DNA of 32,000 nucleotides, taken from positions 1,952,180 to 1,984,179 of the forward strand of contig NZ_LT963434.1 of assembly GCF_900199515.1 (NCBI RefSeq), given 5' to 3'. Below the pieces are notes generated by a model that made no database searches, was not told where the DNA came from, and saw nothing but the letters and a program-made list of their open reading frames with translations. Positions 10,351-23,865 of this stretch are shown here, piece after piece; positions within the stretch are counted from its first letter, which is position 1; each line of letters begins with the position of its first letter. A program made the translations under genes and the position numbers. This stretch comes from Massilicoli timonensis (lineage in GTDB: Bacteria > Bacillota_I > Bacilli_A > Erysipelotrichales > Erysipelotrichaceae).

Positions 10351-10378
10351 TAAACATGTTCAAATTTGAACATGTTTA
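10351..10378. promoter_or_regulatory. Palindrome with TGTTCAAATTTGAACA core, copy A
   Basis: Perfect 28-bp palindrome TAAACATGTTCAAA/TTTGAACATGTTTA. No T-run follows, so it is not a terminator. Confidence 0.6.
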
Positions 10379-10423
10379 GCTATGATTAGAAAGATGTGGT
10401 TTTCTTGATTATTATCTTTATGC

Positions 10424-10451
10424 TTGACATTATCATGTACAAGGATATAAT
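10424..10451 (+). promoter_or_regulatory. Sigma-A-type promoter for TetR T3
   Basis: TTGACA (10424-10429), a 16-nt spacer, then TATAAT (10446-10451). Confidence 0.65.
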
Positions 10452-10477
10452 ATAACTAAGTTATATAACTTAGTTAT
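10452..10477. promoter_or_regulatory. Private palindrome of TetR T3
   Basis: Perfect 26-bp palindrome ATAACTAAGTTAT/ATAACTTAGTTAT abutting the -10 hexamer. Confidence 0.6.
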
Positions 10478-10491
10478 GGCGGTGATATGTT

Positions 10492-11115
10492 GTGGAAAAA
10501 TCTGATACACAGGAACGTATTCTTTCCTGTGGGAAAGAATATTTTTTAAAATATGGATTTAAAAGTGCACCATTAAGAAAAATAGTAGCCAAGGTCGGAG
10601 TGACGACGGGAGCTTTTTATGGATATTATGCTAATAAGGAAGAACTTTTCTATGCGCTGACGGATGATGCAGCGAAAGGCTTTATGGATGTTCTTCATCG
10701 TGTACTTGGTGAAATGAACAGCATTGCAGAAGAAGAAAGAATTTTTAAGATGTGTGATGTCTATATCAAAAGAATACCGGAGATAGCAGAATATCTCCTT
10801 GCACATCACGATGAGATGCTTTTGATTCTTGAATGTTCTCAGGGAACTAAGTATGAGAATTTTTTTGAATCTCTTCAGCGTTCCAATACAGAGAATATTG
10901 ATGAGTCCTCCAGACATTCAAAAAATAAATTAAATTTGATTTCATTGGATACTATGGAACTGCTGATGAGCGGCTACTTTTCCATTTTAAAAAGGATTAT
11001 CATAGAGGAAACAGATCGTGAGAAAATGATTCGCAGCATGAGTGAAGTAGCCAGAGTCTATGAAGCCGGCATTTTAACCTTGATGCAGAAAAGCAACAAC
11101 TATAGGATAATTTGA
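10492..11115 (+). CDS. TetR/AcrR family transcriptional regulator (T3)
   Basis: 207 aa. TetR HTH (ERILSCGKEYFLKYGFKSAPLRKIVAKVGVTTGAFYGYYANKEELF). The GTG start is the first in-frame start after a TGA. Confidence 0.8.
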   Translation: MEKSDTQERILSCGKEYFLKYGFKSAPLRKIVAKVGVTTGAFYGYYANKEELFYALTDDAAKGFMDVLHRVLGEMNSIAEEERIFKMCDVYIKRIPEIAEYLLAHHDEMLLILECSQGTKYENFFESLQRSNTENIDESSRHSKNKLNLISLDTMELLMSGYFSILKRIIIEETDREKMIRSMSEVARVYEAGILTLMQKSNNYRII

Positions 11116-11135
11116 CGGTATGAAGCAGTACCGTC
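11114..11135 (+). terminator. Hairpin at the T3 stop codon (weak terminator or attenuator)
   Basis: GACGGTA (11114-11120) / TACCGTC (11129-11135) with an 8-nt loop. Only a weak U-tract follows. Confidence 0.35.
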
Positions 11136-11152
11136 TAATTATAAAATTGTTA

Positions 11153-11168
11153 GTTAGCCATATCTAAC
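11153..11168. promoter_or_regulatory. Shared palindromic operator GTTAG-N6-CTAAC, copy 6
   Basis: GTTAG CCATAT CTAAC, 23 nt before ATG 11192. An extra overlapping GTTAG sits at 11149-11153. Confidence 0.7.
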
Positions 11169-11191
11169 TAAAGAAGAAAGGAGAATCACAA

Positions 11192-12193
11192 ATGAATAAA
11201 AAAAGTGTATTTGATCAGTTAGCTCAGTTATCTTTCCTACCGCTTTATACAAAGGTAGTGACTGCATCCTTGCAGCTGGATGTATATTCACATTTAAGTG
11301 CAGATATCAGTGCAAAGGATCTGGCTGCCAAGCTAGGGTGGAATGAAAGCAATACTGCTTATTTTTTGGAAGGGCTGACTTCAATAGGATTTGTAGTGAA
11401 GAACGACGAGATGTTCAGAAACAGCGATGAGGCAGAAACCTATCTTGTCAAAGGCAAACCGGAATATTTGGGAAGCTTTATCCAATATTACATCATGAAT
11501 GAAGGATCCATGCCATTTGATATCGTCAAGCTTGTAACGGAAGGACCTCAGCCTATGCAGCAGCAGACTAATGATCAGTCATTGGATTTTGCAGCAATGG
11601 GTGCAATGATGCGTCAGGCTCAGGAAGGATATCGCCAGAAGGAACTGCTGGATATTGTCCGTTCGTTGCCTGAAAATAAAACAATAAACAGTATTCTGGA
11701 TTTAGGATGCGGAACCGGTCTTCTTGGAATGTCGGTAGTAAAGGATGATGAAAAGCGCCAAGGAACATTTATTGATCTGATGCCTGCTTCCATCATAGAA
11801 GAATCAGCAAATCAGATGGAACTATCCGATAGAATAGAAGTCATCAATGGGAATTTTCTTACAGATGATATTGGAAAAGGTTATGATCTAATTCTTGCAG
11901 TATCTGTAGCATTGTTTGCAAAAGGAAACATGGATGTATTTTTGAAAAAGTGCTATGATGCTTTGAATCCTGGAGGAGTCATGCTGGTTATTTCGGAAGC
12001 AATCGCAAAAGATCATACTTCACCTTGGGATATGGTCATGGGATATCTTCCGTATTATATGCAAGGAATGGATATGGGTGTTCTAAAGAATGAGGTTAGT
12101 GAATCCGCTAAACGTATAGGATTTACGAATTGTGAAAAACGCACGGAATTGTTATGTTCCGGAATACAGGATATTGATATCTTAAGAAAATAA
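11192..12193 (+). CDS. Class I SAM-dependent (O-)methyltransferase with an N-terminal dimerisation/winged-helix-like domain
   Basis: 333 aa. SAM motif I ILDLGCGTGLLG and a later acidic motif (FIDL). RBS AAAGGAG. Confidence 0.7.
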   Translation: MNKKSVFDQLAQLSFLPLYTKVVTASLQLDVYSHLSADISAKDLAAKLGWNESNTAYFLEGLTSIGFVVKNDEMFRNSDEAETYLVKGKPEYLGSFIQYYIMNEGSMPFDIVKLVTEGPQPMQQQTNDQSLDFAAMGAMMRQAQEGYRQKELLDIVRSLPENKTINSILDLGCGTGLLGMSVVKDDEKRQGTFIDLMPASIIEESANQMELSDRIEVINGNFLTDDIGKGYDLILAVSVALFAKGNMDVFLKKCYDALNPGGVMLVISEAIAKDHTSPWDMVMGYLPYYMQGMDMGVLKNEVSESAKRIGFTNCEKRTELLCSGIQDIDILRK

Positions 12194-12207
12194 ACAATGA
12201 ATTTATA

Positions 12208-12246
12208 AAGAACAAGTGAGATTATAATCCGCCTGTTCTTTTTTTA
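12208..12246 (+). terminator. Probable intrinsic terminator after the methyltransferase gene
   Basis: AAGAACA (12208-12214) / TGTTCTT (12234-12240) followed by a T-run. Confidence 0.5.
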
Positions 12247-12320
12247 AAAACTAAAAATGTTATCACTGACTTCTTTTAAGATACGCGATAAAATGAACTT
12301 ATAGAAAGGGGTCGAAAGTC

Positions 12321-12587
12321 ATGGCGAAGATCAGTTTGACTGCACAGGCAGCAGGAAAAAGAATAAGAGAATACAGGGAAGAAAAGAAATGGACTATCAA
12401 TAAGATGGCAGCATTTGCTGGCATGGATGCGAAGCATTTAAAGAAACTGGAAGACGGTCTTTCTGAAGGAACATTTCTAATGTATATACATCTGATGGAA
12501 TGTATGAAGAAAAATATCAGTGATTTGTTTGATCAGAGATTTACAGCTATCCTGTATTCATTGGAAACAGGTGAAATGCTTTCATGA
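12321..12587 (+). CDS. XRE family HTH protein
   Basis: 88 aa. RIREYREEKKWTINKMAAFAGMDAKHLKKLEDG is a Cro/C1-type HTH. The stop overlaps the next start (ATGA). Confidence 0.75.
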   Translation: MAKISLTAQAAGKRIREYREEKKWTINKMAAFAGMDAKHLKKLEDGLSEGTFLMYIHLMECMKKNISDLFDQRFTAILYSLETGEMLS

Positions 12588-13132
12588 GAGTGAAATCAAC
12601 GTTGTCTGATCATGATCATATTCATCTGAAGACATTATCAAGACTTCTTGTCAGCAACAGGGAACAAAACGGGTGGTCTGTTGCAGATTTTTGTAAAATG
12701 GCACATATAGACCGCGACAGCTATACAAAGGTGGAAAGAGGAGAGCGTAATCCTACGATTGGAGTGCTGGAAAGTATTTTATCAGTTTATGGTATCAGTA
12801 TGCATATATTTTTTTCTAGCGTTTATCAACAGCTTTATAATGAAGAAATAACTGAATGGAAAATTGATCAAATGCTTAATGACAATCTATGCAGAATGAT
12901 TGACAGACAAAAGATCATTAGAATGATTAAGAAATTCAGAAAATCTCGCAAAATTAGTCAAAACCTGCTGGCAATGGAAATGGGCATTCAGAGAAACTAT
13001 ATTAACAACTTTGAATATGGTCGCTCAAAAGTTACGCCTGAATTACTAAAAGGCATAATGACAGTAATGGATATTGATATAGAAACACTATTGGATATGC
13101 TGGAGGTTCCTGAAAATTTGCGTAGATTTTGA
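12584..13132 (+). CDS. XRE family protein with two tandem HTH domains
   Basis: 182 aa. HTH 1 is NGWSVADFCKMAHIDRDSYTKVERGERNPT. HTH 2 is SRKISQNLLAMEMGIQRNYINNFEYGRSKVT. Confidence 0.75.
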   Translation: MRVKSTLSDHDHIHLKTLSRLLVSNREQNGWSVADFCKMAHIDRDSYTKVERGERNPTIGVLESILSVYGISMHIFFSSVYQQLYNEEITEWKIDQMLNDNLCRMIDRQKIIRMIKKFRKSRKISQNLLAMEMGIQRNYINNFEYGRSKVTPELLKGIMTVMDIDIETLLDMLEVPENLRRF

Positions 13133-13157
13133 TGTTCAAATTTGAACATCATTTTTT
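13130..13157. promoter_or_regulatory. Palindrome with TGTTCAAATTTGAACA core, copy B (also shaped like a terminator)
   Basis: Perfect 22-bp palindrome TGATGTTCAAA/TTTGAACATCA (13130-13151) that overlaps the TGA of the upstream gene. TTTTTT follows at 13152-13157. Confidence 0.6.
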
Positions 13158-13169
13158 GTTTGTTCTATA

Positions 13170-13198
13170 CTGACATATTCAATTATGCACGACATAAT
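13170..13198 (+). promoter_or_regulatory. Promoter of the XRE gene at 13222; homologous to the parA promoter
   Basis: CTGACA, a 17-nt spacer, then CATAAT. It contains GCACGACATAATG (13187-13199), identical to 21654-21666. Confidence 0.55.
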
Positions 13199-13221
13199 GA
13201 ATTTGGAGGTGAATGTAATAT

Positions 13222-13452
13222 ATGGAAGATAATTTAGATAATAGCGTGATTCTAACTCTATTTGGTGAACAAGTAAAGAATTACAGAACTAAGCAATATC
13301 TGACACAGGCGGAACTGGCAGAGAAATCACATCTGCATAGGAACTCCATTGTACTTATTGAGAATGGAAAACAGAATCCAACCCTTACACTCATGTGTAA
13401 GCTGTCTTTTGCATTGAATGTAAAGATGAAAGATCTGGTGGATAATTTATGA
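13222..13452 (+). CDS. XRE family HTH protein
   Basis: 76 aa. QYLTQAELAEKSHLHRNSIVLIENGKQNPT. RBS GGAGGTGA. Confidence 0.8.
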   Translation: MEDNLDNSVILTLFGEQVKNYRTKQYLTQAELAEKSHLHRNSIVLIENGKQNPTLTLMCKLSFALNVKMKDLVDNL

Positions 13453-13775
13453 GACAATCAAATGAAGAAATCATAGAAATGTACTTAAGGGCAGAACTAT
13501 ATGAAAGGCTGGATTGCTATGAGAAAGTGGATTATAAAACAAAGATAGATCGTCTAACTGAAATGATAGAGAAGATGAAAAAACTGCTTCCATCAGAGCA
13601 GCATGGACTGCTGCATGAGTTTGAGGATATCTATATGGATCTGCTTTCTTATTCTGATCCATATGAATTTGAAAACGGCTTCTGTTATGGAGTATCGTTA
13701 TTGCTGAGTGTCATGGAAAAGGAAAAAGAATTTAATAAAAAGTGGAAGAAAAGGGGAGATATAAGCAATGAGTAG
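13449..13775 (+). CDS. Small helical protein of unknown function (DUF6809-like by recollection)
   Basis: 108 aa, ATGA-coupled to the XRE gene. The C-terminal F-E-N-G-F-x-Y-G motif is typical of small proteins encoded after XRE genes on Firmicutes mobile elements. Confidence 0.45.
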   Translation: MRQSNEEIIEMYLRAELYERLDCYEKVDYKTKIDRLTEMIEKMKKLLPSEQHGLLHEFEDIYMDLLSYSDPYEFENGFCYGVSLLLSVMEKEKEFNKKWKKRGDISNE

Positions 13776-14127
13776 AAAAGACACTGCTTGCAATGATTCA
13801 GATATTGATAAGATCATGAAAATCTATATGGAGGCATTGGTTTATCTTCAAAATGATGATTATATGCTGAAAAGTCAGGAATATCTAGAAATTGATAACA
13901 AATTAGAGGAACAGAAGGCTTGCATTAAAGAAAAAGCTAAAGGTATACGATTTGAAGATAAAATAGAGAAACTATTAAACAGTTATGATGATACATGGCA
14001 GAGCATGAATTTTATTTATAGAACATATGGTTTTTTGGATGGGCTCATGATCGGACTTATTTTGAATAAACAGTCTAATGAGGAATTCTATCAAAAACTT
14101 TATATGATGGTAAAAAACAGATGGTAA
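13768..14127 (+). CDS. Small helical protein, paralogue of 13449-13775
   Basis: 119 aa, overlapping the upstream gene by 8 nt. Same layout, and its C-terminal YGFLDGLMIGL parallels NGFCYGVSLLL. Confidence 0.45.
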   Translation: MSRKDTACNDSDIDKIMKIYMEALVYLQNDDYMLKSQEYLEIDNKLEEQKACIKEKAKGIRFEDKIEKLLNSYDDTWQSMNFIYRTYGFLDGLMIGLILNKQSNEEFYQKLYMMVKNRW

Positions 14128-14265
14128 CTTTATAGATGATACTATGAAATTCTTTTATTATTCAAAATGATACTGTTATTTACCATTAGTACAATAGATA
14201 ATAATTTCATATAAAAAAGACTATGAAGTAATTTGATGATACAACATCAACACTTTTATAGTCTT

Positions 14266-14844
14266 TTATATTAAGCATTCTATGCGTTTTCCTTCGTAAA
14301 CACCATTTAGCAATTCATCGCGTGAGCGAGCATAAAGCTTAAATAATTCTTGCGCACGTTTAGGATTCGAATATACTTTCCAGCATCTGCATAGCAAGCA
14401 GGTTTCTTTTTTTATGAATCCTTTCACATCTGCTAAAGGATATCCCAAAAATATACCAATTTCATGAGGATAGCTGCAGCTTTCACATAATCTTTTATTT
14501 AAATGTCTGAAAATGGTTGCCAAATCTTTGGCTGGATAATCAAGAACATTTAAAAAAGAATGAACTTCTGATTGTGAAAGTCTGAGTTTTAATGCCTCCT
14601 TATGATAGACATAGATTGTAAGTCTTTGACAGCCTTCCTAAAAAAGATAAATATGCACACCATGATGAAACAGTATGTTTTGATAACGTTGTACCAATTC
14701 CCTTACATTGTTAAATTGTTTATCAGAAACATGAAACATATTTGCAATTTTAACCTTTTTTAGAACCAGACCACAGTACAAAGCTAACGGCTCTTCAAAT
14801 TCGACTTCATCCTTTGGTAAATCACATTTTGGACAGAATGTCAT
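14266..14844 (-). pseudogene. DUF3793-like gene interrupted by a single in-frame TAG (14640-14638)
   Basis: Track ORFs 14638-14844 and 14266-14523 are in one frame. The intervening 114 nt translate without stops (EGCQRLTIYVYHKEALKLRLSQSEVHSFLNVLDYPAKD). YPHEIGIFLGYPLADVKGFI and WKVY match my recollection of DUF3793. Confidence 0.6.
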
Positions 14845-15175
14845 TTATTGCTGCAATATCTTCATCTGTACCGTTGTTTTCTACCTTGTACAGACATTCA
14901 ACATCATATGTTTCTGCAATTTTATCTCCTGCTAGACAGTAAGCTTCTCCATAGCCCTGATCACCTGAAACAACAACGCCTTTTAGATTCATAGAATTAG
15001 CCAAAAGGAAAGTTTCCACTTCCATTGGAACATCACCATATCCGTCTGTATAGGTAAACAAAACATAAGGCTCATCTATTGTTTCGTTTCCTGTGTCAAT
15101 TCTTAAAGCATCAGCTCCTAATGCCTGTACAATGGATTCTACATTTCCTGTTCTTGAAGCATAAGCAATTTTCAT
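14822..15175 (-). CDS. nrdI: NrdI-like flavodoxin-fold protein
   Basis: 117 aa. MKIAYASRTGNVESIV, PYVLFTYTDGYGDVP, GVVVSGDQGYGEAY and KVENNGTDEDI align by eye with B. subtilis NrdI. RBS AGGAGA. No nrdEF genes are in the window. Confidence 0.55.
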   Translation of the reverse strand: MKIAYASRTGNVESIVQALGADALRIDTGNETIDEPYVLFTYTDGYGDVPMEVETFLLANSMNLKGVVVSGDQGYGEAYCLAGDKIAETYDVECLYKVENNGTDEDIAAINDILSKM

Positions 15176-15192
15176 AGTTGATTCTCCTTTCG

Positions 15193-15208
15193 GTTAGTCT
15201 AAACTAAC
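15193..15208. promoter_or_regulatory. Shared palindromic operator GTTAG-N6-CTAAC, copy 7 (proximal to the nrdI-like gene)
   Basis: GTTAG TCTAAA CTAAC, 17 nt from the reverse-strand ATG at 15175. Confidence 0.7.
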
Positions 15209-15222
15209 TACTTCATAGATAA

Positions 15223-15251
15223 ATGTTAGCATGAGCTAACTATTTTGTCAA
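15223..15251 (-). promoter_or_regulatory. Candidate promoter of the nrdI-like operon
   Basis: Reverse strand reads TTGACA (15251-15246), a 17-nt spacer, then TAACAT (15228-15223). Operator copy 8 fills the spacer and the -10. Confidence 0.4.
15225..15240. promoter_or_regulatory. Shared palindromic operator GTTAG-N6-CTAAC, copy 8 (distal)
   Basis: GTTAG CATGAG CTAAC, overlapping the putative promoter core. Confidence 0.7.
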
Positions 15252-15280
15252 TAGAGGATTCTAGAGTAATTTATAATATA

Positions 15281-15309
15281 TTGACAGAGTTAATCAAGAG
15301 TGTTATACT
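15281..15309 (+). promoter_or_regulatory. Sigma-A-type promoter for TetR T4
   Basis: TTGACA (15281-15286), a 17-nt spacer, then TATACT (15304-15309). Confidence 0.6.
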
Positions 15310-15311
15310 GT

Positions 15312-15344
15312 TCCTATGAACAAAACTAAAAAATGTTCATAGGA
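15312..15344. promoter_or_regulatory. Private inverted repeat of TetR T4
   Basis: TCCTATGAAC, a 13-nt spacer, then GTTCATAGGA: perfect 10-bp arms. The 3' arm overlaps the AGGAGG RBS, so it could be an operator or an RBS-sequestering hairpin. Confidence 0.5.
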
Positions 15345-15350
15345 GGAATT

Positions 15351-15932
15351 ATGCCAGTAGCTTTTACTCATGAAGAACAGCTGAATATCCAACTGAAATT
15401 AGAAGAATCTGCGCTTGCTCTAGTTAAGCAAAAAAGTGTAAAAAAGATTACTGTACGTGAGCTTTCTAATCAGGCGGGAATCTCTATAGGGGCATTTTAT
15501 AAGTTTTATCCAACAAAGGAGCATTTATTTTATTCCCTTTTACGTAGTCTGCATGGTAAGGTTTACGAATCTGCCATGAATGAACTTTTTGCCTCAGGTA
15601 ATATAAATCCTGCTGAACGATTAAGGAATTCTATTATTGCCGGCTGTGACGCCTTGGATAGAAGTGGTATGGAGCGTTTCTGGACGGAAGATGCCTTATA
15701 TGTTATGGAGATGATTCCGGATGTCGATAAAGAAGAACAGCGTATTTCAGAGAAAACGTTATATAAAAAATTCTTCAATATGTACGGAAATCTAGCGGTT
15801 TCAGAGGATTTAGCAATGGATGCATTGGGCAGCTTGCTAATGAGTGTTTCTCAGCGACATATATTAGGTGAGCATTATCCGACAATACTGCTTTGGCAGG
15901 CTGAAGGAGTCTGTAATCATATTTTTGAGTGA
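15351..15932 (+). CDS. TetR/AcrR family transcriptional regulator (T4)
   Basis: The track ORF starts at 15333. ATG 15351 follows AGGAGG at proper spacing. HTH is ITVRELSNQAGISIGAFYKFYPTKEHLF. More divergent than T1-T3. Confidence 0.8.
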   Translation: MPVAFTHEEQLNIQLKLEESALALVKQKSVKKITVRELSNQAGISIGAFYKFYPTKEHLFYSLLRSLHGKVYESAMNELFASGNINPAERLRNSIIAGCDALDRSGMERFWTEDALYVMEMIPDVDKEEQRISEKTLYKKFFNMYGNLAVSEDLAMDALGSLLMSVSQRHILGEHYPTILLWQAEGVCNHIFE

Positions 15933-15961
15933 GAAATCACTCAAAAAATTTTAATCATCGA

Positions 15962-15977
15962 GTTAGACAAAGCTAAC
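15962..15977. promoter_or_regulatory. Shared palindromic operator GTTAG-N6-CTAAC, copy 9
   Basis: GTTAG ACAAAG CTAAC, 30 nt after the T4 stop and 51 nt before ATG 16029. Confidence 0.7.
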
Positions 15978-16028
15978 TGAAATTCTCCTGAGTCTAAAAA
16001 CAAATTTATGAAAATGATGGAGGTTATT

Positions 16029-16637
16029 ATGAAAAAAATGAACAATGCAAATCGTTTAGACGTCCCAGATTTTATTTCAATTGGGATTTATACAGCAATA
16101 TATTTTGTGCTGGTTACCATAGCAACATTTTCAAGCGGTATTTTGTTTGCTGGTTTTGCATATGTATTGCTTCCTGCATTAGCCACTTTAATATCAGGAT
16201 GTGTATATATGTTAATGGTTGCTAAAGTACCTAAATTTGGGGCAATAACCATTATGGGTATTGTTATGGGACTGTTTTTCTTTGCGTCAGGTCATTTTAT
16301 TTTATCTTTTGGAGCTAATATTGTATGTGGCGTTTTAGCCGATATTATCTGTAAAATCGGAAAATATAAAAATAAGATGCTGATACTTTTGAGCTATATT
16401 GTGTTTTCATTTGGATTGACTGGACCAGTTCTTCCTATGTGGTTTATGAAAGATGCATATGTTGCTAATTTAATTGAACGTGGGAAAGATGCGGCTTACA
16501 TTGATGCAATGTTTGCTTCAATCAATATGGGAACCTTCGGCATCTGCTGTATTGCTATTTTAATCTGTGCAATTATAGGTGGAATATTTGGACAGCGAAT
16601 GATGAAAAAGCATTTTCAGAAAGCAGGCATTATATAA
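16029..16637 (+). CDS. Putative ECF transporter S component (MptD / Trep_Strep-like integral membrane protein)
   Basis: About 202 aa from ATG 16029 (RBS GGAGG). Five or six hydrophobic helices. It sits directly before the T component and the double ATPase, and overlaps the next gene in a TAATG. Confidence 0.5.
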   Translation: MKKMNNANRLDVPDFISIGIYTAIYFVLVTIATFSSGILFAGFAYVLLPALATLISGCVYMLMVAKVPKFGAITIMGIVMGLFFFASGHFILSFGANIVCGVLADIICKIGKYKNKMLILLSYIVFSFGLTGPVLPMWFMKDAYVANLIERGKDAAYIDAMFASINMGTFGICCIAILICAIIGGIFGQRMMKKHFQKAGII

Positions 16638-17314
16638 TGATTTGCCTTGATCCAAGAGTAAAATTATATCTGCTTTTAGAAGCCAATCTGCTGCTTTTCT
16701 TTCATGTGAATACTGTAACGGAAGTAATAATCGTTGTATTGTTTTTGTTGCCCTTTTTTCTTTCCGGAAAAACAAAAAGCGCTTTGCGTTTTACGATTAT
16801 CTATATGCTTTTGCTTATCATCGGAATGATGACTGATTCGGCTGGGACAAATACTCTACTCAATTTTGTCGCAATGGCAGCCGTTGGAATACGAATGATT
16901 CTTCCCTGTTTGATTGCAGGAGCCTATGCTTTTAGTACGACTACACCAAGTGAATTGTTTTGTGCTTTGAGAAAGTGTCATATTCCAGAAGGAATTATTA
17001 TCACTTGTGCTGTTGTTATACGCTTTTTTCCTACCGTTATGGAAGACTATCGACAGATTCGCGATGGTATGGCGATGAGAAACATTTATATAGGTATGTT
17101 TCATCCCTTACAATCTTTAGAATATGTCATTATTCCTTTATTGATGAATGGCAGTACGGTAGCAAGAGATCTTTCGGTAGCTGCTTTAACAAAAGGAATT
17201 GGGCTATCAGGAAGACATACAAGCATGGTACAGATAAAAATGCAAATTTACGACTGGATCTATATGATTATAAGTACGATACCGCTAATTATGTTTAAGG
17301 GAGGATTTTTATGA
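16637..17314 (+). CDS. ecfT: ECF transporter transmembrane (T) component, CbiQ/EcfT family
   Basis: 225 aa polytopic membrane protein between the S component and the ATPase. Coupled at both ends (TAATG, ATGA). Confidence 0.65.
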   Translation: MICLDPRVKLYLLLEANLLLFFHVNTVTEVIIVVLFLLPFFLSGKTKSALRFTIIYMLLLIIGMMTDSAGTNTLLNFVAMAAVGIRMILPCLIAGAYAFSTTTPSELFCALRKCHIPEGIIITCAVVIRFFPTVMEDYRQIRDGMAMRNIYIGMFHPLQSLEYVIIPLLMNGSTVARDLSVAALTKGIGLSGRHTSMVQIKMQIYDWIYMIISTIPLIMFKGGFL

Positions 17315-18738
17315 TGAATATCATATCTAGCAAAAATATCTCCTTTTCCTATATGAATAGTGAACAGGCTTCATTGAAAGAAATAACGATTGGAATAGAA
17401 GAAGGAGAGTGCATTGTTCTTTGTGGGAGAAGCGGCAGCGGAAAAACAACTTTTTCAAGACTTCTTAATGGATTGTGTCCTATGTTTTTTACAGGCAAAT
17501 TAAGTGGCGAATGCGATACATCTGGTTTACAGGCAGGAAATGCTACGATTGAAGAATATGTGCTTTATGTAGGAAGTGTATTTCAAAATCCTAAGACGCA
17601 GTATTTCAATACGGATACGACGGCAGAATTAGCTTTTCCATGTGAAAACTGTGGCTTTCCTTCTGATGAAATAAAAAAGAGAGTTAACGAATGTGTTCAA
17701 AGATTTCAATTAGATGGTCTTATGAATCGAAATATCTTTAAGCTTTCTGGAGGTGAAAAGCAACGTGTCGCTTTTGCAGCATCAACAATGCTTGATCCTA
17801 AAATATTGGTTTTAGACGAACCGACAAGTAATCTGGATGCGTCAGCCATCTCTAAATTACGTAGGATGATTCTTGAAATGAAACAGTCAGGTAAAACGAT
17901 CATTATAGCGGAACATCGACTTGCATGGCTCAATGATATTGCAGATCGATATGTATTATTTGAAAGTGGAGAAATAAAACAGGAATGGTCTGCAAAAGAG
18001 TTTTTGCAGTTTTCACAGAGCGAATTATATGAAGTTGGATTGAGAGCAACGCGACTTGATATATTGAAAGAAATTATAGAAAATAAATTGAATTCTCAGG
18101 CTGTAAGTGGAAATGTGCTATTAAAGGCTTCGAATTTAGTCATAGGATATGATAAAAAAACAGAAGTTTATAAGCTAAATACTTTTTGTTTATATAATGG
18201 AACAGTTGTTGGATTAGTAGGACATAATGGAGTAGGCAAGAGTACTCTGGCAAAGACATTATGTGGTCTGATCAAACCATTATCAGGTTCCATTCAATGG
18301 AAAGGACAGATGGTAAAAGGAAAGCAACTGACTGATCATGCCTTTCTTGTCATGCAAGATGTAAATTATCAATTATTTAGTGATTCTGTAAGAGATGAGG
18401 CATTGCTTGGAAATAGCAATCATGAACAATGTAATCAGGTATTGAAAATGCTAGGCCTTAGTGAAGTAAGTGAACGACACCCGATGAGTCTATCAGGAGG
18501 ACAGAAGCAAAGAGTTGCCATTGCATCTGCCATACTTTCAAACAAGGAATTAATCGTATTGGATGAGCCGACCAGTGGATTGGATCACTATCATATGACA
18601 CAGGTTGGAAATTTATTGCAGATGTTAAAAAAACAGGGAAAATGCGTACTTGTAATTACGCATGATGAAGAATTAACTGCCCAATGGTGTGATTATATTA
18701 TTCGATTAGATGGAGGTAATTATGGAACTGGATATTAA
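17311..18738 (+). CDS. Fused double ABC ATPase (EcfA-EcfA' type)
   Basis: 475 aa with two NBDs. Walker A GRSGSGKTT and GHNGVGKST; signatures LSGGEKQRVAFA and LSGGQKQRVAIA; Walker B ILVLDEPTS and LIVLDEPTS. Confidence 0.9.
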   Translation: MMNIISSKNISFSYMNSEQASLKEITIGIEEGECIVLCGRSGSGKTTFSRLLNGLCPMFFTGKLSGECDTSGLQAGNATIEEYVLYVGSVFQNPKTQYFNTDTTAELAFPCENCGFPSDEIKKRVNECVQRFQLDGLMNRNIFKLSGGEKQRVAFAASTMLDPKILVLDEPTSNLDASAISKLRRMILEMKQSGKTIIIAEHRLAWLNDIADRYVLFESGEIKQEWSAKEFLQFSQSELYEVGLRATRLDILKEIIENKLNSQAVSGNVLLKASNLVIGYDKKTEVYKLNTFCLYNGTVVGLVGHNGVGKSTLAKTLCGLIKPLSGSIQWKGQMVKGKQLTDHAFLVMQDVNYQLFSDSVRDEALLGNSNHEQCNQVLKMLGLSEVSERHPMSLSGGQKQRVAIASAILSNKELIVLDEPTSGLDHYHMTQVGNLLQMLKKQGKCVLVITHDEELTAQWCDYIIRLDGGNYGTGY

Positions 18739-19348
18739 AGAATGGATTGGTCAATGGGATAATTTTGAAAACTACATTAACAGTCATGATAAAAACATGT
18801 TGGCATGCTGGGAAGAAGCTGAATCTATCTGCCAAGGTATTCCGATGTTTTCAAAAGGAGTAAAAGTCTTTTGGCAACAATCATGCAAGACAATAACAGA
18901 AGAAAACTTAATTCAGATTTATGGCTGGAATATTAAAGAAAGCAATAAAGAAAAAAGCATTCTGACGATTGAATGGTTTACATCTGACAAGCAGATTATA
19001 GAGGTTTTTGATTATACACTGGATTCTATTGTGGAAAAAGGGTTAGAATCAAAGCCTAATTATCTTCTGCGTGCAATAAATGGCAGAGAAGGCAGCCCAT
19101 TTACTTATATATTGGCTATGCCTCCAATGCCTGAAAGATCTTCCATCAAGGAAGGAGGATTATTAAGCCATTTTCATTTTCAGTTTGCAAGTTCTCTAGA
19201 TAAATTGGTATGTGACGATGGAAAGCTTGCAAAACCAATGTGGTATGCGACCATGTGTTCAGCAGATGGTGATTTACTCGAACAATGCAATATTGTGCGT
19301 GCCTTGCATCGTTTACCAAAATGGAATAAGCTCATATATGAATTATAG
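18722..19348 (+). CDS. Cytoplasmic ZinT/YodA-like (lipocalin-type metal-binding) protein
   Basis: The track ORF starts at 18710. ATG 18722 follows GGAGG. No signal peptide. EWIGQWDNFENY, SHFHFQF and KPMWYATM resemble DWDGVWQSVYP, SHFHIFMG and NWPTYYP of E. coli ZinT (from memory). Confidence 0.4.
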   Translation: MELDIKEWIGQWDNFENYINSHDKNMLACWEEAESICQGIPMFSKGVKVFWQQSCKTITEENLIQIYGWNIKESNKEKSILTIEWFTSDKQIIEVFDYTLDSIVEKGLESKPNYLLRAINGREGSPFTYILAMPPMPERSSIKEGGLLSHFHFQFASSLDKLVCDDGKLAKPMWYATMCSADGDLLEQCNIVRALHRLPKWNKLIYEL

Positions 19349-19375
19349 TATGATTTTACATGTATAAATATAGAA

Positions 19376-19404
19376 ACAAGAGCGATAGAATTGTCGCTTT
19401 TTTC
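19376..19404 (+). terminator. Probable intrinsic terminator of the ECF operon
   Basis: AGCGA (19381-19385) / TCGCT (19394-19398), extendable with one mismatch, followed by TTTTTT. Confidence 0.5.
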
Positions 19405-19640
19405 TATATGTTTCCATATTCTTTCGGAGTCTATCCTTAGATTTTTAAAAAATGCTCTGAATGATAATCACAATCCTTTACAGTGATTAGACTTTTTACA
19501 AAATCCGATTTTATAAATTCTAATTTATCTATTCAACCCTCTAAAATCCCTTTGTTTTCAAGGCTTTACGTCTGTATTGTGTTCCAATCTTATGTATTTT
19601 CTCTGTTTTTGACCTTACGAGCCGAAACAAGGGGGATTTT

Positions 19641-19988
19641 TTATGCCTCGCCGACTACTTCATCCAGCAGCTTTGCGAAACTGCGCTTCGCTTCCTTTGT
19701 AGCGAGAGCGTAGATATTCATTGTGGTATTGATATCGGCGTGTCCAAAATGTTCCTTCACATCCTTCGGTGCTACCCCATTCGATAGCAGATTGCTTGTA
19801 AATGCGTGTCGGAGTTGATGACAATGGAAGCCTTCTAACTCCTCGACCTTCTTGTGTGCCGTCCTATACATAATCCCTACCGTACTCGCCACTTCATCCA
19901 CTCCGTCTGGGCTGAGGCAGACAAAGGATATTTCTCTGTAGTCATCGGGAATTCTTCTATTCTCGGCAGGCTGGATAAAATCCCTGAT
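19641..19988 (-). pseudogene. Tyrosine recombinase/integrase, C-terminal fragment only
   Basis: Residues 86-200 of track ORF 19641-20243 carry HCHQLRHAFTSNLLSNGVAPKDVKEHFGHADINTTMNIYA (the HxLRH, GH and catalytic Y region). The first 85 residues are low-complexity antisense of another fragment. The N-terminal core and the first catalytic Arg are missing. Confidence 0.65.
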
Positions 19989-20150
19989 ACATTCAAAGAG
20001 GAAGGTTATCCCAATGTACAGACGTTTATGCAGACCTATCGTGAAGCAGAAGCCGTTGTAAAGCAGCACAATCGCAGTCTTGCCGAATGGGGACGACAGG
20101 TTAAGGAAAAGAGTAGCCCGCAGAAGCCGCCCGAAAGGGAGAGCGTCTGA
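19965..20150 (+). pseudogene. C-terminal fragment of an unidentified mobile-element protein
   Basis: LDKIPDTFKEEGYPNVQTFMQTYREAEAVVKQHNRSLAEWGRQVKEKSSPQKPPERESV reads as a real protein tail. It has no N-terminus and abuts the integrase fragment head-on. Confidence 0.3.
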
Positions 20151-20312
20151 AACAGACCCAGACAGTTGCAGGAGATGCAGGAGCAGGATAGACAACAGCC
20201 ACACAGAAAGAAATCCTTTGACAGAGACATAGCAGATAGACACAGAAAAAACGTCGCTATGGTGTTACCCATACACGACGTCATACATATAGCTGAATGT
20301 TTTATAGCAACT

Positions 20313-20741
20313 TTATTCGTCTACGATTATCGTTTCGTCAGTTACTACCGGCTGGTTATTCTGAGTACCGTTATCGAGGTATTGAATGCTAAAGATGATA
20401 GCAATAAAAATATTTACCAGAATGATTGTCGCTAGTATAATGCCAATAATTTTCCAAATGCGATGTGAGCGACGGTTTTTAATTGCAAGCTGCTCATTTA
20501 TTCTGGATAGCTGCGTTGCAACATCGCTGGTAACATTTTCGTCTTCAATTTTCTCCCCTAACAATTCGCTGACAGATACCTCTAATATCTCAGCCAGACG
20601 AATTAAAGTAACCGCATCAGGAACGGATAAGTTTTTCTCCCATTTAGAGATTGTCTGTCTGGCTACATGAAGTCTTGCTGCTAGTTCTTCTTGGGAAAAG
20701 CCTTTTTGCTTTCTTAAGACTTTTAGATTTTCACTAAACAT
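20313..20741 (-). CDS. XRE family HTH protein with a C-terminal transmembrane helix
   Basis: 142 aa. LKVLRKQKGFSQEELAARLHVARQTISKWEKNLSVPD, then the hydrophobic segment IWKIIGIILATIILVNIFIAIIF. RBS AAGGAGG. Confidence 0.8.
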   Translation of the reverse strand: MFSENLKVLRKQKGFSQEELAARLHVARQTISKWEKNLSVPDAVTLIRLAEILEVSVSELLGEKIEDENVTSDVATQLSRINEQLAIKNRRSHRIWKIIGIILATIILVNIFIAIIFSIQYLDNGTQNNQPVVTDETIIVDE

Positions 20742-20994
20742 TATGTGTTTCCTCCTTGAATTTGATTAGTCAATTATAGAACGACATCTATTGTATGACA
20801 AGCAATGCAGATTAACAATAGCGCAACTGTTGATAACAAGGGCTTTTCGCTGTTTTATTTGAACCAAATAGTTTCAATGAATGTGTGATAGTTGGTTGAT
20901 TTCAGAAAACAACTGATTAAAAAGTATTTCTGATTTCTTAAAATGATTAGCGACAGAGATTTCTCTCTGCACCATTTATCTATGCAAAGATGAT

Positions 20995-21345
20995 TCACTT
21001 TTCTACAATCTCCTTTGCATACGCTCGTATGTTATTTATTCTCTGTGTCCATTCTAAAGCATTTTCTGCCTTCAACTGTTCCGTGATACCCTGTGCCTGT
21101 CTGTTGACGTCGCAAGGTAGGAATTGAACTTGCCGCTAGTAAGAAGAATGGTGTATGTAACTCTGTGGTATTCTTCCAGATACCGCAAATGACGCTGCCT
21201 CCAAGGCCAATAGGTCTTTCTTTTTCGGCTGGCTAGGTAAAGCAGGGAAAATAGTAGTCATCCTGCAATTCATACTATAATCCGTTATTCTCATCGTAAA
21301 TGTACTTGTCCATTGAAAAACCTCTGTTATAATATATTCGCACAA
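20995..21345 (-). pseudogene. TnpV-like remnant interrupted by an in-frame TAG (21138-21136) and an apparent internal deletion
   Basis: The frame reads ...SYIHHSSY*RQVQFLPCDVNRQAQGITEQLKAENALEWTQRINNIRAYAKEIVEK*. The tail resembles the GVTEELKA..M.WV..MN.IR..AEEIV C-terminus of clostridial transposon TnpV proteins (from memory). Confidence 0.35.
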
Positions 21346-21611
21346 ACATTACAGTTTTACGATCACCACACTCTCTTATATCTTGTTATGAGATTCTCTT
21401 GTCCTTGCATTTGCCCCTATGAGCAAGGAAAAATGAGTAAACTTGTGTGTAACCGTATAAAGAGCTAAGGTGAAGAATATGATAAATCCTTTATTTTCAA
21501 GGCTTTCGGATAATTTTGTTGAAAGCCTATAGCGGACAATAACCATTTATAAAATTGTGGTTTTCATATTATTATTTAAACTACATTTCTGCATTTTTAT
21601 GTATATATAAA

Positions 21612-21629
21612 ATGCTCAAATTTGAACAT
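21612..21629. promoter_or_regulatory. Palindrome with TGTTCAAATTTGAACA core, copy C, upstream of parA
   Basis: ATGCTCAAA/TTTGAACAT is an 18-bp palindrome with one mismatch. It ends 7 nt before the -35 of the parA promoter. Confidence 0.6.
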
Positions 21630-21636
21630 CTAGACG

Positions 21637-21665
21637 CTGACAATTACTCAAAAGCACGACATAAT
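21637..21665 (+). promoter_or_regulatory. parA promoter
   Basis: CTGACA (21637-21642), a 17-nt spacer, then CATAAT (21660-21665). It contains GCACGACATAATG (21654-21666), identical to the 13187-13199 promoter. Confidence 0.55.
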
Positions 21666-21684
21666 GTGTATCGAGGTGATACAC

Positions 21685-22503
21685 ATGAAGAAAATAAAGA
21701 ATAAAAACAAAAAAGGACATATCATTGCATTAACCAATCAGAAAGGTGGAACAGGCAAGACAACAGTAACCATCAATGCAGGTGTTGCATTATCTAAAAT
21801 GGGGTATAAGGTTTTAGTATTAGATAATGATGAACAGACAAATCTAACAACTGGCTTAATTGTAGATAATCATTTATATAAAGAGAAGAATTTAGGAAAT
21901 CTGCTTGATGATGTGCTGGATGAAAAGAAGATTAGATTAAATAGATATATTATCCGTTTACGTTATGTAGATATCATAGCAGGTTGTAGAAATCTCTTTA
22001 CCTATAAGGAAGAATTCAGAAACAGAAAAAATCGCAATACGATTTATAGAGATATTTTGGAGCAGGTAAGAAGCAAATATGATTTTATTTTGATTGACTG
22101 TCCTCCTGTAGCAGGGATTGAAAATGCACAGGCATATACAGCTGCTGACAGCATCTTAGTAGTATCAGAACCATCCATGTACAGTATGGATGGTATCGTG
22201 GACGCTGTTAGAATTGTAGGGGAAGCAAGGATAACTGAAAATCCAAAGCTAAGAGTGTTAGGGGTAGTGGTTAATAAGATGCATTTTATGAGGAGAGAAG
22301 ATAAAGGATATGTGCAAGAGATACGTTCCATGTGCAATGGAAAGGTACATGTATTCAATAGCATTATTCCTGAAAGTGCAGCTATCGCAAGATGTGCTTC
22401 ATTAGGAAAAAGCATTCTTCAGCATAGAAGCACATCGAAAGCATCATATGCCTTTCTTGATTTGGCACAGGAAATCGTAAGGGAGGTGTCATTAGATGCG
22501 TAG
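21685..22503 (+). CDS. parA: ParA/Soj family partition ATPase
   Basis: Deviant Walker A NQKGGTGKTT. The track start at 21664 lies inside the -10 hexamer. ATG 21685 (MKKIKNK) follows GAGGTGA. Confidence 0.9.
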   Translation: MKKIKNKNKKGHIIALTNQKGGTGKTTVTINAGVALSKMGYKVLVLDNDEQTNLTTGLIVDNHLYKEKNLGNLLDDVLDEKKIRLNRYIIRLRYVDIIAGCRNLFTYKEEFRNRKNRNTIYRDILEQVRSKYDFILIDCPPVAGIENAQAYTAADSILVVSEPSMYSMDGIVDAVRIVGEARITENPKLRVLGVVVNKMHFMRREDKGYVQEIRSMCNGKVHVFNSIIPESAAIARCASLGKSILQHRSTSKASYAFLDLAQEIVREVSLDA

Positions 22504-23473: not shown

Positions 23474-23507
23474 GTTTGGTGTGTGTAATAATTATTGATT
23501 ATACATG

Positions 23508-23530
23508 TTTCATTATTAGTAATAATGAAA
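23508..23530. repeat. AT-rich 23-bp palindrome after parB
   Basis: TTTCATTATTA g TAATAATGAAA, with perfect 11-bp arms. Confidence 0.5.
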
Positions 23531-23753
23531 TATATAGTCTATCAAGAAATAACTTAATAATTGTTCTAATGACAAAGTAAAAAATAAATGTAATAATAAT
23601 ATATTTTGAGAGACGAATACATCTTGAAAAAGCAGTAAAACAAGGCATTTTATATGGTAAAAATATAAAAATATTTTTTGCACTGCGAAAATAAGTACAT
23701 TCTAGTGATAACATGATATTGATGATAAGTGAATATTAATGATGATTTTGTGC

Positions 23754-23778: not shown

Positions 23779-23865
23779 TTGCATTGCAGGGAGTATAATG
23801 ATTTCTTTAATGATTCATTAGAGTATCTTATTATCTGACGGTTTGAAGGCGGGTGTTACTGATTG

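What the first reader, a model, noticed from the sequence alone, without database searches (positions are those of the whole stretch)
10351..21666. Second palindrome family (TGTTCAAATTTGAACA core) in three copies, plus a duplicated promoter cassette linking parA to an XRE gene 8 kb away: candidate parS/operator
The copies are 10351-10378 (perfect 28 bp), 13130-13151 (perfect 22 bp) and 21612-21629 (18 bp, one mismatch). Copies B and C are each followed by the same promoter build, CTGACA-N17-CATAAT. Both promoters contain an identical 13-mer GCACGACATAATG (13187-13199 and 21654-21666) and a GAGGTGA RBS. They drive XRE gene 13222 and parA 21685 respectively. The core is a 16-bp palindrome that starts TGTT and ends AACA, like the chromosomal parS TGTTNCACGTGAAACA, but its centre differs. 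A site directly upstream of parA is the classic location for a centromere or partition operator. Alternatively, it is the operator of the XRE repressor encoded at 13222. Either way, the XRE block at 13.1-14.1 kb appears to belong to, or be controlled with, the replicon module at 21.6-32 kb. The two are separated by genes of the other regulon.
Basis: partly seen in the sequence, partly recalled or inferred. Interest (0 to 1): 0.7.

Follow-up and report, generated by a model that had tools for sequence, protein, structure and literature searches.

The report
Conserved parS-like palindrome on a gut-bacterial ICE
A 16-18 bp palindrome and a distinctive promoter are real, conserved control sites of a little-known conjugative element integrated in a gut Firmicute chromosome; the palindrome is most likely the binding site (centromere and operator) of the element's own ParB protein, which is a familiar kind of system in an unstudied element family.

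Summary
TGTTCAAATTTGAACA occurs at 10357 and 13133 (perfect) and 21613 (one mismatch). CTGACA-N11-GCACGACATAATG occurs at 13170 and 21637. Neither is expected by chance.

The region is not a plasmid replicon. It is the left, regulatory and maintenance arm of an integrative conjugative element (ICE) inserted after rpsI in Massilicoli or a related Coprobacillaceae genome. Type IV secretion genes lie downstream.

In every related lineage examined (ParB 35-100% identical), the same palindrome sits upstream of the same promoter in front of parA. Usually 16-19 nt separate it from the -35. The surrounding DNA is unalignable.

The palindrome always accompanies parAB but not the XRE gene. In several lineages the XRE-DUF6809 promoter has no palindrome. 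The parA copy in the window cannot form a hairpin.

ParB has the canonical CTPase and HTH fold, and its HTH block is invariant. The site has the length and outer bases of chromosomal parS. My best reading is a ParB-bound parS-like centromere and autoregulatory operator, resembling KorB/OB or BisD/bisS (confidence about 0.55). Binding is untested.

In one relative they are contiguous, so the window carries about 7.5 kb of inserted cargo.

The parts
10351..10378 (.). Palindrome copy A: 28-bp perfect palindrome with core TGTTCAAATTTGAACA at 10357-10372. It is an orphan site with no family promoter within 120 nt. It lies between the terminator of the ABC transporter gene and a consensus TTGACA-16-TATAAT promoter (10424) for the TetR gene at 10492.
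12266..12294 (+). Variant family promoter CTGACT-N17-TAAAAT (with ..CGCGA before the -10) in front of the HTH88/tandem-HTH operon. Homologous promoters in L018 (position 102) and L042 (position 6639) read GCACGT-TAAAAT and GCACGT-TATGAT.
12321..13132 (+). HTH88 (12321-12587) and a tandem double-HTH_3 protein of 182 aa (12584-13132). These are left-end ICE regulators, present in some lineages only.
13130..13151 (.). Palindrome copy B: 22-bp perfect palindrome overlapping the stop codon of the tandem-HTH gene and followed by TTTTTTG. It fits a terminator-like pattern and lies 21 nt upstream of the -35 of the XRE promoter.
13170..13199 (+). Family promoter CTGACA-N11-GCACGA-CATAAT-G driving the XRE76, DUF6809 and p119 genes.
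13222..14127 (+). XRE76 (13222-13452), DUF6809 protein (13449-13775) and a 119-aa protein (13768-14127). The XRE-DUF6809 pair is conserved in most lineages.
14128..21600 (.). Inserted cargo and debris separating the XRE block from parA. Contents: a DUF3793 fragment, an NrdI-like flavodoxin, a TetR gene, ECF-type transporter genes, a truncated integrase and a CI-like repressor. The last two are bracketed by a 19-mer direct repeat. All of this is absent from relative L018.
21612..21629 (.). Palindrome copy C: 18 bp with one mismatch, 8 nt upstream of the -35 of the parA promoter. It is identical in 14 independent contigs and predicted not to form a hairpin (-1.6 kcal/mol).
21637..21666 (+). Family promoter CTGACA-N11-GCACGA-CATAAT-G driving parA-parB.
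21685..22503 (+). parA: a 272-aa Walker-type ParA/MinD ATPase with no N-terminal HTH.
22496..23473 (+). parB: 325 aa with a ParB_N CTPase-fold domain (GxxRxxA motif = GYNRVYA) plus an HTH. The HTH block YEMTDSxMxR[FY]L[ST]LxKL is invariant across the family. This is the proposed binder of the palindrome.
23863..24219 (+). p118: a small ArpU/RinA-like protein with a sigma-region-4-like HTH, conserved after parB. It is a candidate reader of the family promoter (a hint only).

Best explanation
The palindrome (A/G)TGTTCAAATTTGAACA(T/C) is the specific binding site of the ICE-encoded ParB. It is a parS-like site.

Proposed mechanism (inferred):
- ParB dimers recognise the 16-18 bp palindrome through their conserved HTH.
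- The copy in front of parA lets ParB autoregulate the parAB operon.
- Copies at other family promoters (XRE in this element) and the orphan copies (A, and the copy near attL) add loading sites. Together they build a partition or silencing complex over the left arm of the element, which would act on the excised circular form together with ParA.
- The separate, element-wide promoter CTGACA-N11-GCACGA-CATAAT is read by RNA polymerase, probably with another element factor.

Shown here: the sites, their conservation, their positions, and the ParB fold.

Inferred: who binds the palindrome, and whether the effect is repression, activation or segregation.
For: 1. Universal linkage to parAB. Ten lineages with ParB 35-100% identical carry the palindrome upstream of the parA promoter: window, L030, L015, L018, L019, L023/25/42, L024, L034, L026 and L041. 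The arms are identical in all. Only L019 changes the central 4-6 bp. The neighbouring DNA cannot be aligned.
2. ParB-independent pattern scans of genome and metagenome collections returned almost only this ICE family. The match lay directly before parA in all family loci but L032, where it precedes the XRE gene on the same contig as L030.
3. Copies cluster around parAB in relatives: four within 3.5 kb in L023/L025, and copies flanking parAB in L024 and L041. No copy occurs in the 10 kb of T4SS genes beyond the window (L035), in the 10 kb upstream of parA in L041, or in about 21 kb of chromosomal flanks in L023, L024 and L042.
4. ParB is a canonical clamp-type ParB. It has a Pfam ParB_N domain and the GxxRxxA motif. 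Foldseek top hits are ParB, Noc and KorB over about 210 columns (E 6e-11 to 1e-7). Its HTH aligns with the Helicobacter pylori Spo0J HTH solved on parS. The HTH block is the most conserved part of the protein, matching an invariant DNA target.
5. The site has parS length (16 bp) and parS outer bases (TGTTC...GAACA). Compare Pseudomonas parS, TGTTCCACGTGGAACN, quoted in PMC12409273.
6. ParA lacks an N-terminal HTH, so it is unlikely to be the operator binder itself (inference from type Ia systems).
7. Copy C carries a mismatch that abolishes the hairpin yet is fixed in 14 contigs. A protein site tolerates this; a structural element would not.
8. Spacing to the -35 is held at 16-21 nt at non-homologous promoters: parA, XRE, and an unrelated gene in L041. 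This indicates functional coupling to transcription.
Against: - No binding data exist.
- Most loci were collected through ParB homology, which biases the co-occurrence argument. The pattern scans only partly remove this bias.
- XRE76's recognition helix is also partly conserved (H-[RK]-N). The XRE-DUF6809 pair is present in most lineages, so a trans-acting XRE that regulates parAB but not itself is not excluded.
- A site centred near -60 is an unusual place for a simple repressor.
- ParB box III lacks the catalytic Glu (TNFF instead of ENLQ), so clamp cycling may differ from canonical ParB.
- The remaining ~30 kb of this ICE downstream could not be scanned.
Confidence: 0.55

Rival explanations
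1. The palindrome is the operator of the small XRE repressor (13222-13452), possibly working with DUF6809. This XRE would control parAB and its own operon.
For: Copy B sits 21 nt upstream of the XRE promoter in the window, L032 and L018. XRE dimers typically bind short palindromes. The XRE-DUF6809 pair is conserved in most lineages. The XRE recognition helix keeps H-[RK]-N.
Against: In the L023/L025/L042/L034 lineages the orthologous XRE-DUF6809 promoter follows an ordinary terminator and has no palindrome. L026 has none nearby either. L015-L017 keep the palindrome, promoter and intact parAB with no XRE within 10 kb on either side. Extra copies cluster around parAB rather than around the XRE gene.
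Confidence: 0.15
2. The palindrome acts as a nucleic-acid structure rather than a protein site. Candidate roles are a bidirectional transcription terminator or insulator between operons, or a hairpin on transferred single-stranded DNA, such as a priming signal for the element's DnaG-like primase.
For: Copy B matches a terminator pattern and overlaps a stop codon. Copies A and B and the L023 copy fold well (z -3.2 to -4.1). Many copies have extra self-complementary outer arms that differ from copy to copy. Many copies lie at gene ends. The element encodes a primase.
Against: Copy C cannot fold (-1.6 kcal/mol, z +0.96) yet is fixed in 14 contigs, and the L015 copy is marginal. Only the B-position copies (window, L032, L018, L026) are followed by a T-rich run. 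The outer arms decay between close relatives (L038 versus window; L025 versus L023), so they are not under clear selection and may be template-switch by-products. The stem and loop sequences are invariant, which a hairpin does not need. Spacing to the -35 is constrained, which a terminator does not need.
Confidence: 0.12
3. The palindrome is bound by another regulator. Candidates are one of the left-end HTH proteins (HTH88, tandem-HTH), the CI-like protein, or a host factor. It would act as a class-I-type activator site centred near -60.
For: The centre lies about -58 to -64 from the start site at most promoters. The window's parA copy is about 10 bp, one helical turn, closer. A tandem-HTH protein could read two half-sites. 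Copy B directly follows the tandem-HTH gene.
Against: HTH88 and the tandem-HTH are absent from the L023, L024, L015 and L041 contexts, which keep the palindrome. The CI-like gene belongs to a decayed insert found only in the window lineage. No palindrome occurs in the chromosomal flanks, as a host regulon would predict. The arrangement is not a LexA (Cheo) box; this comparison is from my own knowledge.
Confidence: 0.1

Closest known systems
KorB/OB with KorA/OA on IncP plasmid RK2
   Same: A ParB-CTPase-fold protein is encoded with a ParA homologue. Its palindromic site occurs at several places on the element: some just upstream of the -35 of promoters, including the promoter of its own operon, and others remote from any promoter. 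At PkorA, OB lies directly upstream of the -35 and a second operator (OA) overlaps the upstream half of the -10 (PMC11790492). Here the palindrome lies upstream of the -35 and a conserved GCACGA block abuts the -10. KorB is among the Foldseek hits.
   Different: The host is a Firmicute and the element is an ICE. The site sequence is unrelated (16-18 bp versus the 13-bp OB). The gap to the -35 is 16-21 nt rather than about 4. No KorA/TrbA-like partner is identified, and the GCACGA block is not palindromic. Sequence similarity to KorB is only marginal (E about 1). Regulation is untested.
BisD/bisS of ICEclc (Pseudomonas)
   Same: A ParB-like CTP-binding protein on an integrative conjugative element recognises a few parS-like palindromes in the regulatory arm near attL and controls ICE promoters (PMC12409273).
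   Different: BisD carries an extra activator domain and works with BisC. Its bisS is a 23-bp site (11-bp inverted-repeat arms) inside genes. Here ParB is paired with a ParA, the sites are intergenic, and no activator domain is evident.
Chromosomal ParABS (Spo0J/Soj with parS TGTTNCACGTGNAACA)
   Same: A short Walker ParA is paired with an HTH ParB with the CTPase fold. The site is a 16-bp palindrome with the same outer bases TGTT(C)...(G)AACA, and several copies lie near parAB.
   Different: The central 6 bp are AAATTT rather than CACGTG. The sites sit at fixed distances from promoters. The system is on a mobile element. ParB is only about 20-25% identical to solved ParBs, and box III is altered.
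Tn916-type ICE regulatory module (XRE plus a small sigma-like Orf7)
   Same: It combines small XRE proteins with a small sigma-region-4-like protein (p118 here) near one end of a Firmicute ICE. This resemblance is recalled from my own knowledge and was not tested.
   Different: Tn916 has no ParAB and no such palindrome. No sequence relationship was established.

Membership tests
ParABS partition system | Walker-type ParA ATPase encoded next to parB | tested here: met
   Pfam AAA_31/CbiA/ParA/MipZ match with E 1e-41. The genes overlap (21685-22503 and 22496-23473).
ParABS partition system | ParB with the N-terminal ParB/Srx CTPase fold and the GxxRxxA motif | tested here: met
   ParB_N E 6e-8. 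GYNRVYA aligns to GERRWRA of Myxococcus ParB. Foldseek top hits are ParB, Noc and KorB, E 6e-11 and weaker. Box III Glu is replaced (TNFF), so hydrolysis is uncertain.
ParABS partition system | HTH DNA-binding domain homologous to that of parS-binding ParB | tested here: met
   phmmer alignment to HpSpo0J (4umk) spans residues 34-229, including the HTH. The model has pLDDT of about 89-93 over residues 171-240. The HTH block is invariant in 13 homologues.
ParABS partition system | Cis-acting palindromic site(s) close to parAB, conserved with the proteins | tested here: met
   The palindrome lies upstream of parA in all 10 lineages, and extra copies flank parAB in L023, L024, L025 and L041.
ParABS partition system | ParB binds the site; parAB plus the site stabilise a replicon | not testable with these tools
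   Needs EMSA or ChIP and a stability assay.
Canonical chromosomal parS (TGTTNCACGTGNAACA) | Match to the 16-bp consensus including the central CACGTG | tested here: not met
   The outer TGTTC/GAACA bases match, but the central six are AAATTT (consensus as quoted in PMC12409273).
KorB-type global regulation by a ParB-family protein | The same ParB site is present at several promoters of the element as well as at promoter-distal positions | tested here: met
   In the window, sites lie at PXRE and PparA plus the orphans A and pal0. In L041 they lie at PparA and one further promoter. In L023/L042 they lie at PparA and 67 nt upstream of the Y4mA_C promoter.
KorB-type global regulation by a ParB-family protein | A partner repressor (KorA/TrbA-like) with an operator overlapping the -10 | tested here: inconclusive
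   A conserved GCACG(A/G) block abuts the -10 in all family promoters, but no partner is identified. XRE76's match to TrbA (E 1e-5, 25 bits versus cutoff 96) is generic HTH_3 similarity.
Autoregulated XRE/Cro-type repressor-operator pair | The operator is present at the repressor's own promoter across orthologous elements | tested here: not met
   The XRE-DUF6809 promoters in L023 (12467), L025 (5752), L042 (11349) and L034 (6770) have no palindrome.
Intrinsic (Rho-independent) terminator | Stable stem-loop followed by a U-run at every copy | tested here: not met
   In the window only copy B fits. Copy C folds at -1.6 kcal/mol, and copies A and C lack a T-run.
Integrative conjugative element | Chromosomal integration next to a conserved gene, with conjugation (T4SS) genes present | tested here: met
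   rpsI flanks the left end in L038-40 and L042-43. T4SS_pilin, TrbL_4 and an NlpC/P60 surface protein lie downstream. A T4 coupling protein and integrases are present in L041. ParB occurs on a 2.09-Mb contig of Massilicoli timonensis. The relaxase and the right end were not seen.

The most novel reading that the evidence does not exclude
This Firmicute ICE family may run a KorB/BisD-style control circuit. A ParB-CTPase clamp would load at the TGTTCAAATTTGAACA sites and act at a fixed distance on a dedicated, element-wide promoter type (CTGACA-N11-GCACGA-CATAAT). It would cooperate with a second element factor that reads the conserved block at the -10, either the ArpU/RinA-like p118 or the XRE. 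Partition and global transcriptional control of the ICE's maintenance and regulatory arm would then be one system. As far as I know, that would be the first such case in Gram-positive bacteria.
Probability: 0.3. Interest if true: 0.7.

Novelty: new member of a known kind. Interest (0 to 1): 0.45.

Why it matters
ParB-family proteins that double as long-range transcription regulators are so far known from a handful of proteobacterial elements, notably RK2 KorB and ICEclc BisD. This ICE family lives in human-gut Erysipelotrichales and carries multidrug-type ABC transporter cargo.

It offers a compact test case with clear sequence handles:
- an invariant 18-bp site;
- an invariant promoter type;
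- a small set of candidate proteins.

The case could show whether ParB-based control of mobile elements also exists in Firmicutes. It also supplies ready cis-element signatures for recognising this ICE family and delimiting its cargo insertions. If the site is only a centromere with autoregulation, the finding is ordinary plasmid-type biology on an ICE.

Tried and rejected
- **Plasmid or phage origin.** Megablast of 12200-24300 found nothing in PLSDB and only a 400-bp unrelated hit in phages. The cassette pattern has no match in IMG/VR. tblastn of ParB against plasmids gave only 25-27% hits. I therefore rejected a known plasmid or phage.
- **Genome-wide repeat.** The pattern scan of 185k species genomes gave a single locus, L025 in Coprobacillaceae, which is the same ICE family. 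The metagenome scan gave 9 loci: 6 from this family and 3 that look like chance or satellite hits (L027, L028, L031). Rejected.
- **attC-like cassette boundaries or recombination sites.** Palindromes do bracket some modules. However, the cargo insertion after parB in L011/L012 has no palindromes at its edges, and nothing points to a recombinase acting on them. Not pursued.
- **LexA/Cheo box, CRP/FNR-type box or UP element.** The half-site orientation and the conserved G/C positions do not fit. This comparison is from my own knowledge only.
- **Dyad symmetry in GCACGACATAATG.** I found only inconsistent short symmetries between lineages, so I dropped it.
- **Co-variation between site variants and ParB or XRE residues.** The site hardly varies (position ±9 is A:T or G:C, and only L019 changes the centre), so no informative co-variation could be extracted.
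- **Literature.** The 16-mer occurs in none of the 8 million papers searched.
- **p118 homologue search.** It returned only two near-identical proteins, so no structure prediction was attempted for p118.

Full report
**1. Observation**

- Copy A, 10351-10378, is a perfect 28-bp palindrome.
- Copy B, 13130-13151, is a perfect 22-bp palindrome. Its first triplet is the stop codon of the upstream gene.
- Copy C, 21612-21629, is 18 bp with one mismatch.

The 16-bp core, searched with up to 3 mismatches, finds only these three sites against 0.58 expected. An arms-only scan (TGTTCA-N4-TGAACA, up to 1 mismatch) expects 0.135 per shuffled window. The 30-bp promoter build CTGACA-N11-GCACGACATAATG occurs twice with no mismatch and never in shuffles.

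**2. What the region is**

Pfam and NCBIfam annotation gives this gene order:
- 1-10.3 kb: TetR and AraC regulators and four ABC exporter genes.
- 10.4-12.2 kb: a TetR gene and a methyltransferase.
- 12.3-14.1 kb: HTH88, a tandem double-HTH protein, XRE76, a DUF6809 protein and a 119-aa protein.
- 14.2-21.5 kb: a flavodoxin, a TetR gene, an ECF transporter, a truncated integrase and a CI-like repressor.
- 21.7 kb onward: parA, parB, four small genes, a C5 methylase, a DnaG-type primase, an HTH_36 protein and further genes.

Evidence that this is an integrated conjugative element:
- ParB is 100% identical to a Massilicoli timonensis protein found on a 2.09-Mb contig.
- Walking downstream reaches T4SS pilin, TrbL/VirB6-like and NlpC/P60 surface-protein genes.
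- Walking upstream reaches rpsI.
- A related element (L042) sits directly after rplM-rpsI.
- Two others (L023, L024) sit directly after an rRNA/tRNA U5-methyltransferase gene.

The element matches nothing in the plasmid or phage collections. It is therefore an ICE, and the stretch in question is its left, regulatory and maintenance arm.

**3. Comparative evidence**

ParB homologues are rare: 30 clusters among 5.8 billion sequences. I fetched DNA for ten lineages whose ParB is 35-100% identical to the window's.

In every lineage the parA gene is preceded by the same blocks (alignment):
- the palindrome;
- a variable spacer;
- CTGACA;
- 11 variable bases;
- GCACG(A/G)CATAAT(G/A);
- a short leader and GAGGTGA.

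Between these blocks the DNA does not align. This is a clean phylogenetic footprint.

The palindrome arms never change. Only L019 alters the central bases (TGTTCATAAATGAACA). The position just outside the core is always complementary (A:T or G:C), so the conserved unit is 18 bp.

The gap from the core to the -35 is 16-21 nt at twelve promoters. These include non-homologous ones: parA, XRE, and an unrelated gene in L041. The gap is 8 nt in the window and its closest relative L030, which carry an 11-nt deletion. It is 67 nt at the Y4mA_C promoter.

**4. The promoter is a separate, element-wide signal**

The same promoter build occurs without any palindrome in front of:
- the XRE-DUF6809 operon in L023, L025, L034 and L042;
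- two integrase genes in L041;
- further operons in L026;
- in variant form, the HTH88 operon of the window (12266), L018 and L042.

So the shared 13-mer is not a private link between parA and the XRE gene. It marks a promoter family of the ICE's regulatory arm. Its conserved non-consensus C's (CTGACA, CACG, CATAAT) suggest a specific reader. The gene after parB (p118) encodes an ArpU/RinA-like protein with a sigma-region-4-type HTH (phrog_36 E 3.6e-10; SigF region 4 E 0.006). It is a candidate reader, but this is only a hint.

**5. Who binds the palindrome**

*Association.* The palindrome is always with parAB and only sometimes with XRE (section 4). HTH88 and the tandem-HTH are missing from several lineages that keep the palindrome. 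L015-L017 keep the palindrome, the promoter and intact parAB with no XRE within 10 kb.

*Distribution.* Extra copies cluster around parAB in relatives: four in 3.5 kb in L023/L025, and both sides of parAB in L024 and L041. No copy occurs in the T4SS stretch, in the 10 kb upstream of parA in L041, or in about 21 kb of chromosomal flanks.

*Protein.* ParB has the ParB_N domain with the GxxRxxA motif. Its model matches ParB, Noc and KorB structures over about 210 columns (mean pLDDT 75.6). Its HTH aligns with that of H. pylori Spo0J solved on parS. The HTH block YEMTDSxMxR[FY]L[ST]LxKL is the most conserved part of the family.

*Site.* It has parS length and parS outer bases (TGTTC...GAACA) with a different centre (for the Pseudomonas consensus).

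*Structure rivals.* Copy C cannot fold (-1.6 kcal/mol; 174 of 200 shuffles fold at least as well) yet is identical in 14 contigs. Only copy B looks like a terminator. The outer self-complementary arms differ between copies and are lost between close relatives. I read them as template-switch by-products of a strong palindrome, or at most as a secondary feature.

**6. Mechanism proposed**

ParB dimers bind the palindrome. The copy at about -50 to -60 of PparA provides autoregulation. ParA has no HTH of its own, so it is unlikely to fill that role. Copy B couples the XRE operon to the same control and probably also terminates the HTH88/tandem-HTH transcript. Copy A and the attL-proximal copy (L038:561, about 265 bp after rpsI) are promoter-distal loading sites. 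With ParA, the complex would segregate the excised circular ICE.

Whether ParB represses (as KorB does), activates (as BisD does) or only segregates is inferred, not shown. The constrained spacing argues for a transcriptional role beyond a pure centromere. Confidence that ParB is the binder is about 0.55.

**7.

- The parS/partition-operator idea is the favoured one.
- The XRE-operator alternative is disfavoured.
- The claim that the XRE block belongs with the parAB module is supported by L018, where the two are contiguous, and by L042 and L026.
- The 7.5 kb between them in the window is cargo plus a decayed integrative remnant bracketed by a 19-mer direct repeat.
- 'Replicon' should read 'ICE'.

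**8. Comparison with known systems and novelty**

The closest working analogues are:
- RK2 KorB/OB with KorA/OA. At PkorA, OB lies just upstream of the -35 and OA overlaps the -10 (PMC11790492).
- ICEclc BisD/bisS (PMC12409273).

Membership in the broad ParABS family is met for every sequence-testable feature. The site is not canonical parS. A KorA-like partner is not established. I rate this a new member of a known kind. The more novel reading, a KorB/BisD-type regulatory clamp circuit in a Firmicute ICE, has a probability of about 0.3.

**9. Limits**

- There is no experimental evidence of binding.
- The collection of loci is biased toward ParB homologues.
- Transcription start sites are unknown.
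- The right-hand ~30 kb of this ICE and the rest of the host genome were not scanned.

Noticed in passing
L038:561-576 (about 8.1 kb upstream of window position 1; same site in L039 and L040): A fourth copy of the palindrome (AGATGTTCAAATTTGAACATCT) lies about 265 bp after the rpsI stop codon, close to the presumed left end (attL) of the ICE. In L023, L024 and L042 the first palindrome likewise lies within a few hundred bp to about 2 kb of the chromosomal junction.
   Followed up: partly
L038:440-530: Next to that copy are four direct repeats of GGCGTAAT-like sequence (one reads TGCGTAAA) and two of ATGCAGCAAA. They look like arm-type integrase/Xis binding sites at attL. In L040 a second integrase-bearing element sits at the same rpsI 3' end, so rpsI appears to be an insertion hot spot.
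   Followed up: no
window 19549-19567 and 21488-21506: A 19-mer direct repeat CCTTT(G/A)TTTTCAAGGCTTT brackets a truncated tyrosine integrase (19641-20243, minus strand) and a CI-like XRE repressor (20313-20741, minus strand). This is probably the att duplication of a small, decayed integrative element inserted just upstream of parA.
   Followed up: partly
window 12266-12294, 13170-13199, 21637-21666; L041:5273 and 6617; L026 (reverse strand) 5245 and 6818; L023:12467: An element-wide promoter family, CTGAC(A/T)-N11-GCACG(A/G/T)-(C/T)A(T/A)AAT-G, has conserved non-consensus C's and very short leaders. It serves regulators, parAB, integrases and other operons of the ICE, mostly without the palindrome.
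   Followed up: partly
window 23863-24219: The conserved 118-aa gene after parB encodes an ArpU/RinA-like protein with a sigma-region-4-type HTH (phrog_36 E 3.6e-10; SigF region 4 E 0.006). It could be the factor that reads the promoter family.
   Followed up: partly
window 22496-23473 (ParB residues about 109-116): ParB box III reads INFTNFF where canonical ParB has (V)ENLQR. The catalytic Glu is replaced by Thr in all 13 homologues, whereas the GxxRxxA motif is kept. CTP hydrolysis and clamp cycling may differ from canonical ParB.
   Followed up: no
L011:10979-16034 and L012: A 90%-identical variant of the ICE carries an extra TetR gene and two ABC exporter genes between parB and p118. This intergenic region therefore also accepts cargo, and no palindromes flank the insertion.
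   Followed up: no
L023, L024, L025, L034 and window copy A: Beyond the conserved 18 bp, many copies carry 3-7 further self-complementary base pairs whose sequence differs from copy to copy. Close relatives lose them by single mutations. This may be palindrome extension by template switching rather than a selected structure.
   Followed up: partly
window 1919-1966 and 2017-2064: A 48-nt direct repeat (77% identity) ends in the inverted repeat GTTAGCTAAAACTAAC.
   Followed up: no
L041:1-10000: In one relative the T4 coupling protein, a DNA polymerase III beta-like gene, an N6 methylase, two integrases and an M78-peptidase protein lie directly upstream of parA. Either this contig crosses the joint of an excised or tandem element, or the family has a rearranged member.
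   Followed up: no
L008:235-1428; L034 (reverse strand) 2460-3433: An IS110-family transposase sits about 1 kb upstream of parA in one sample. In L034, parB is split into two ORFs by a frameshift or an assembly error.
   Followed up: no
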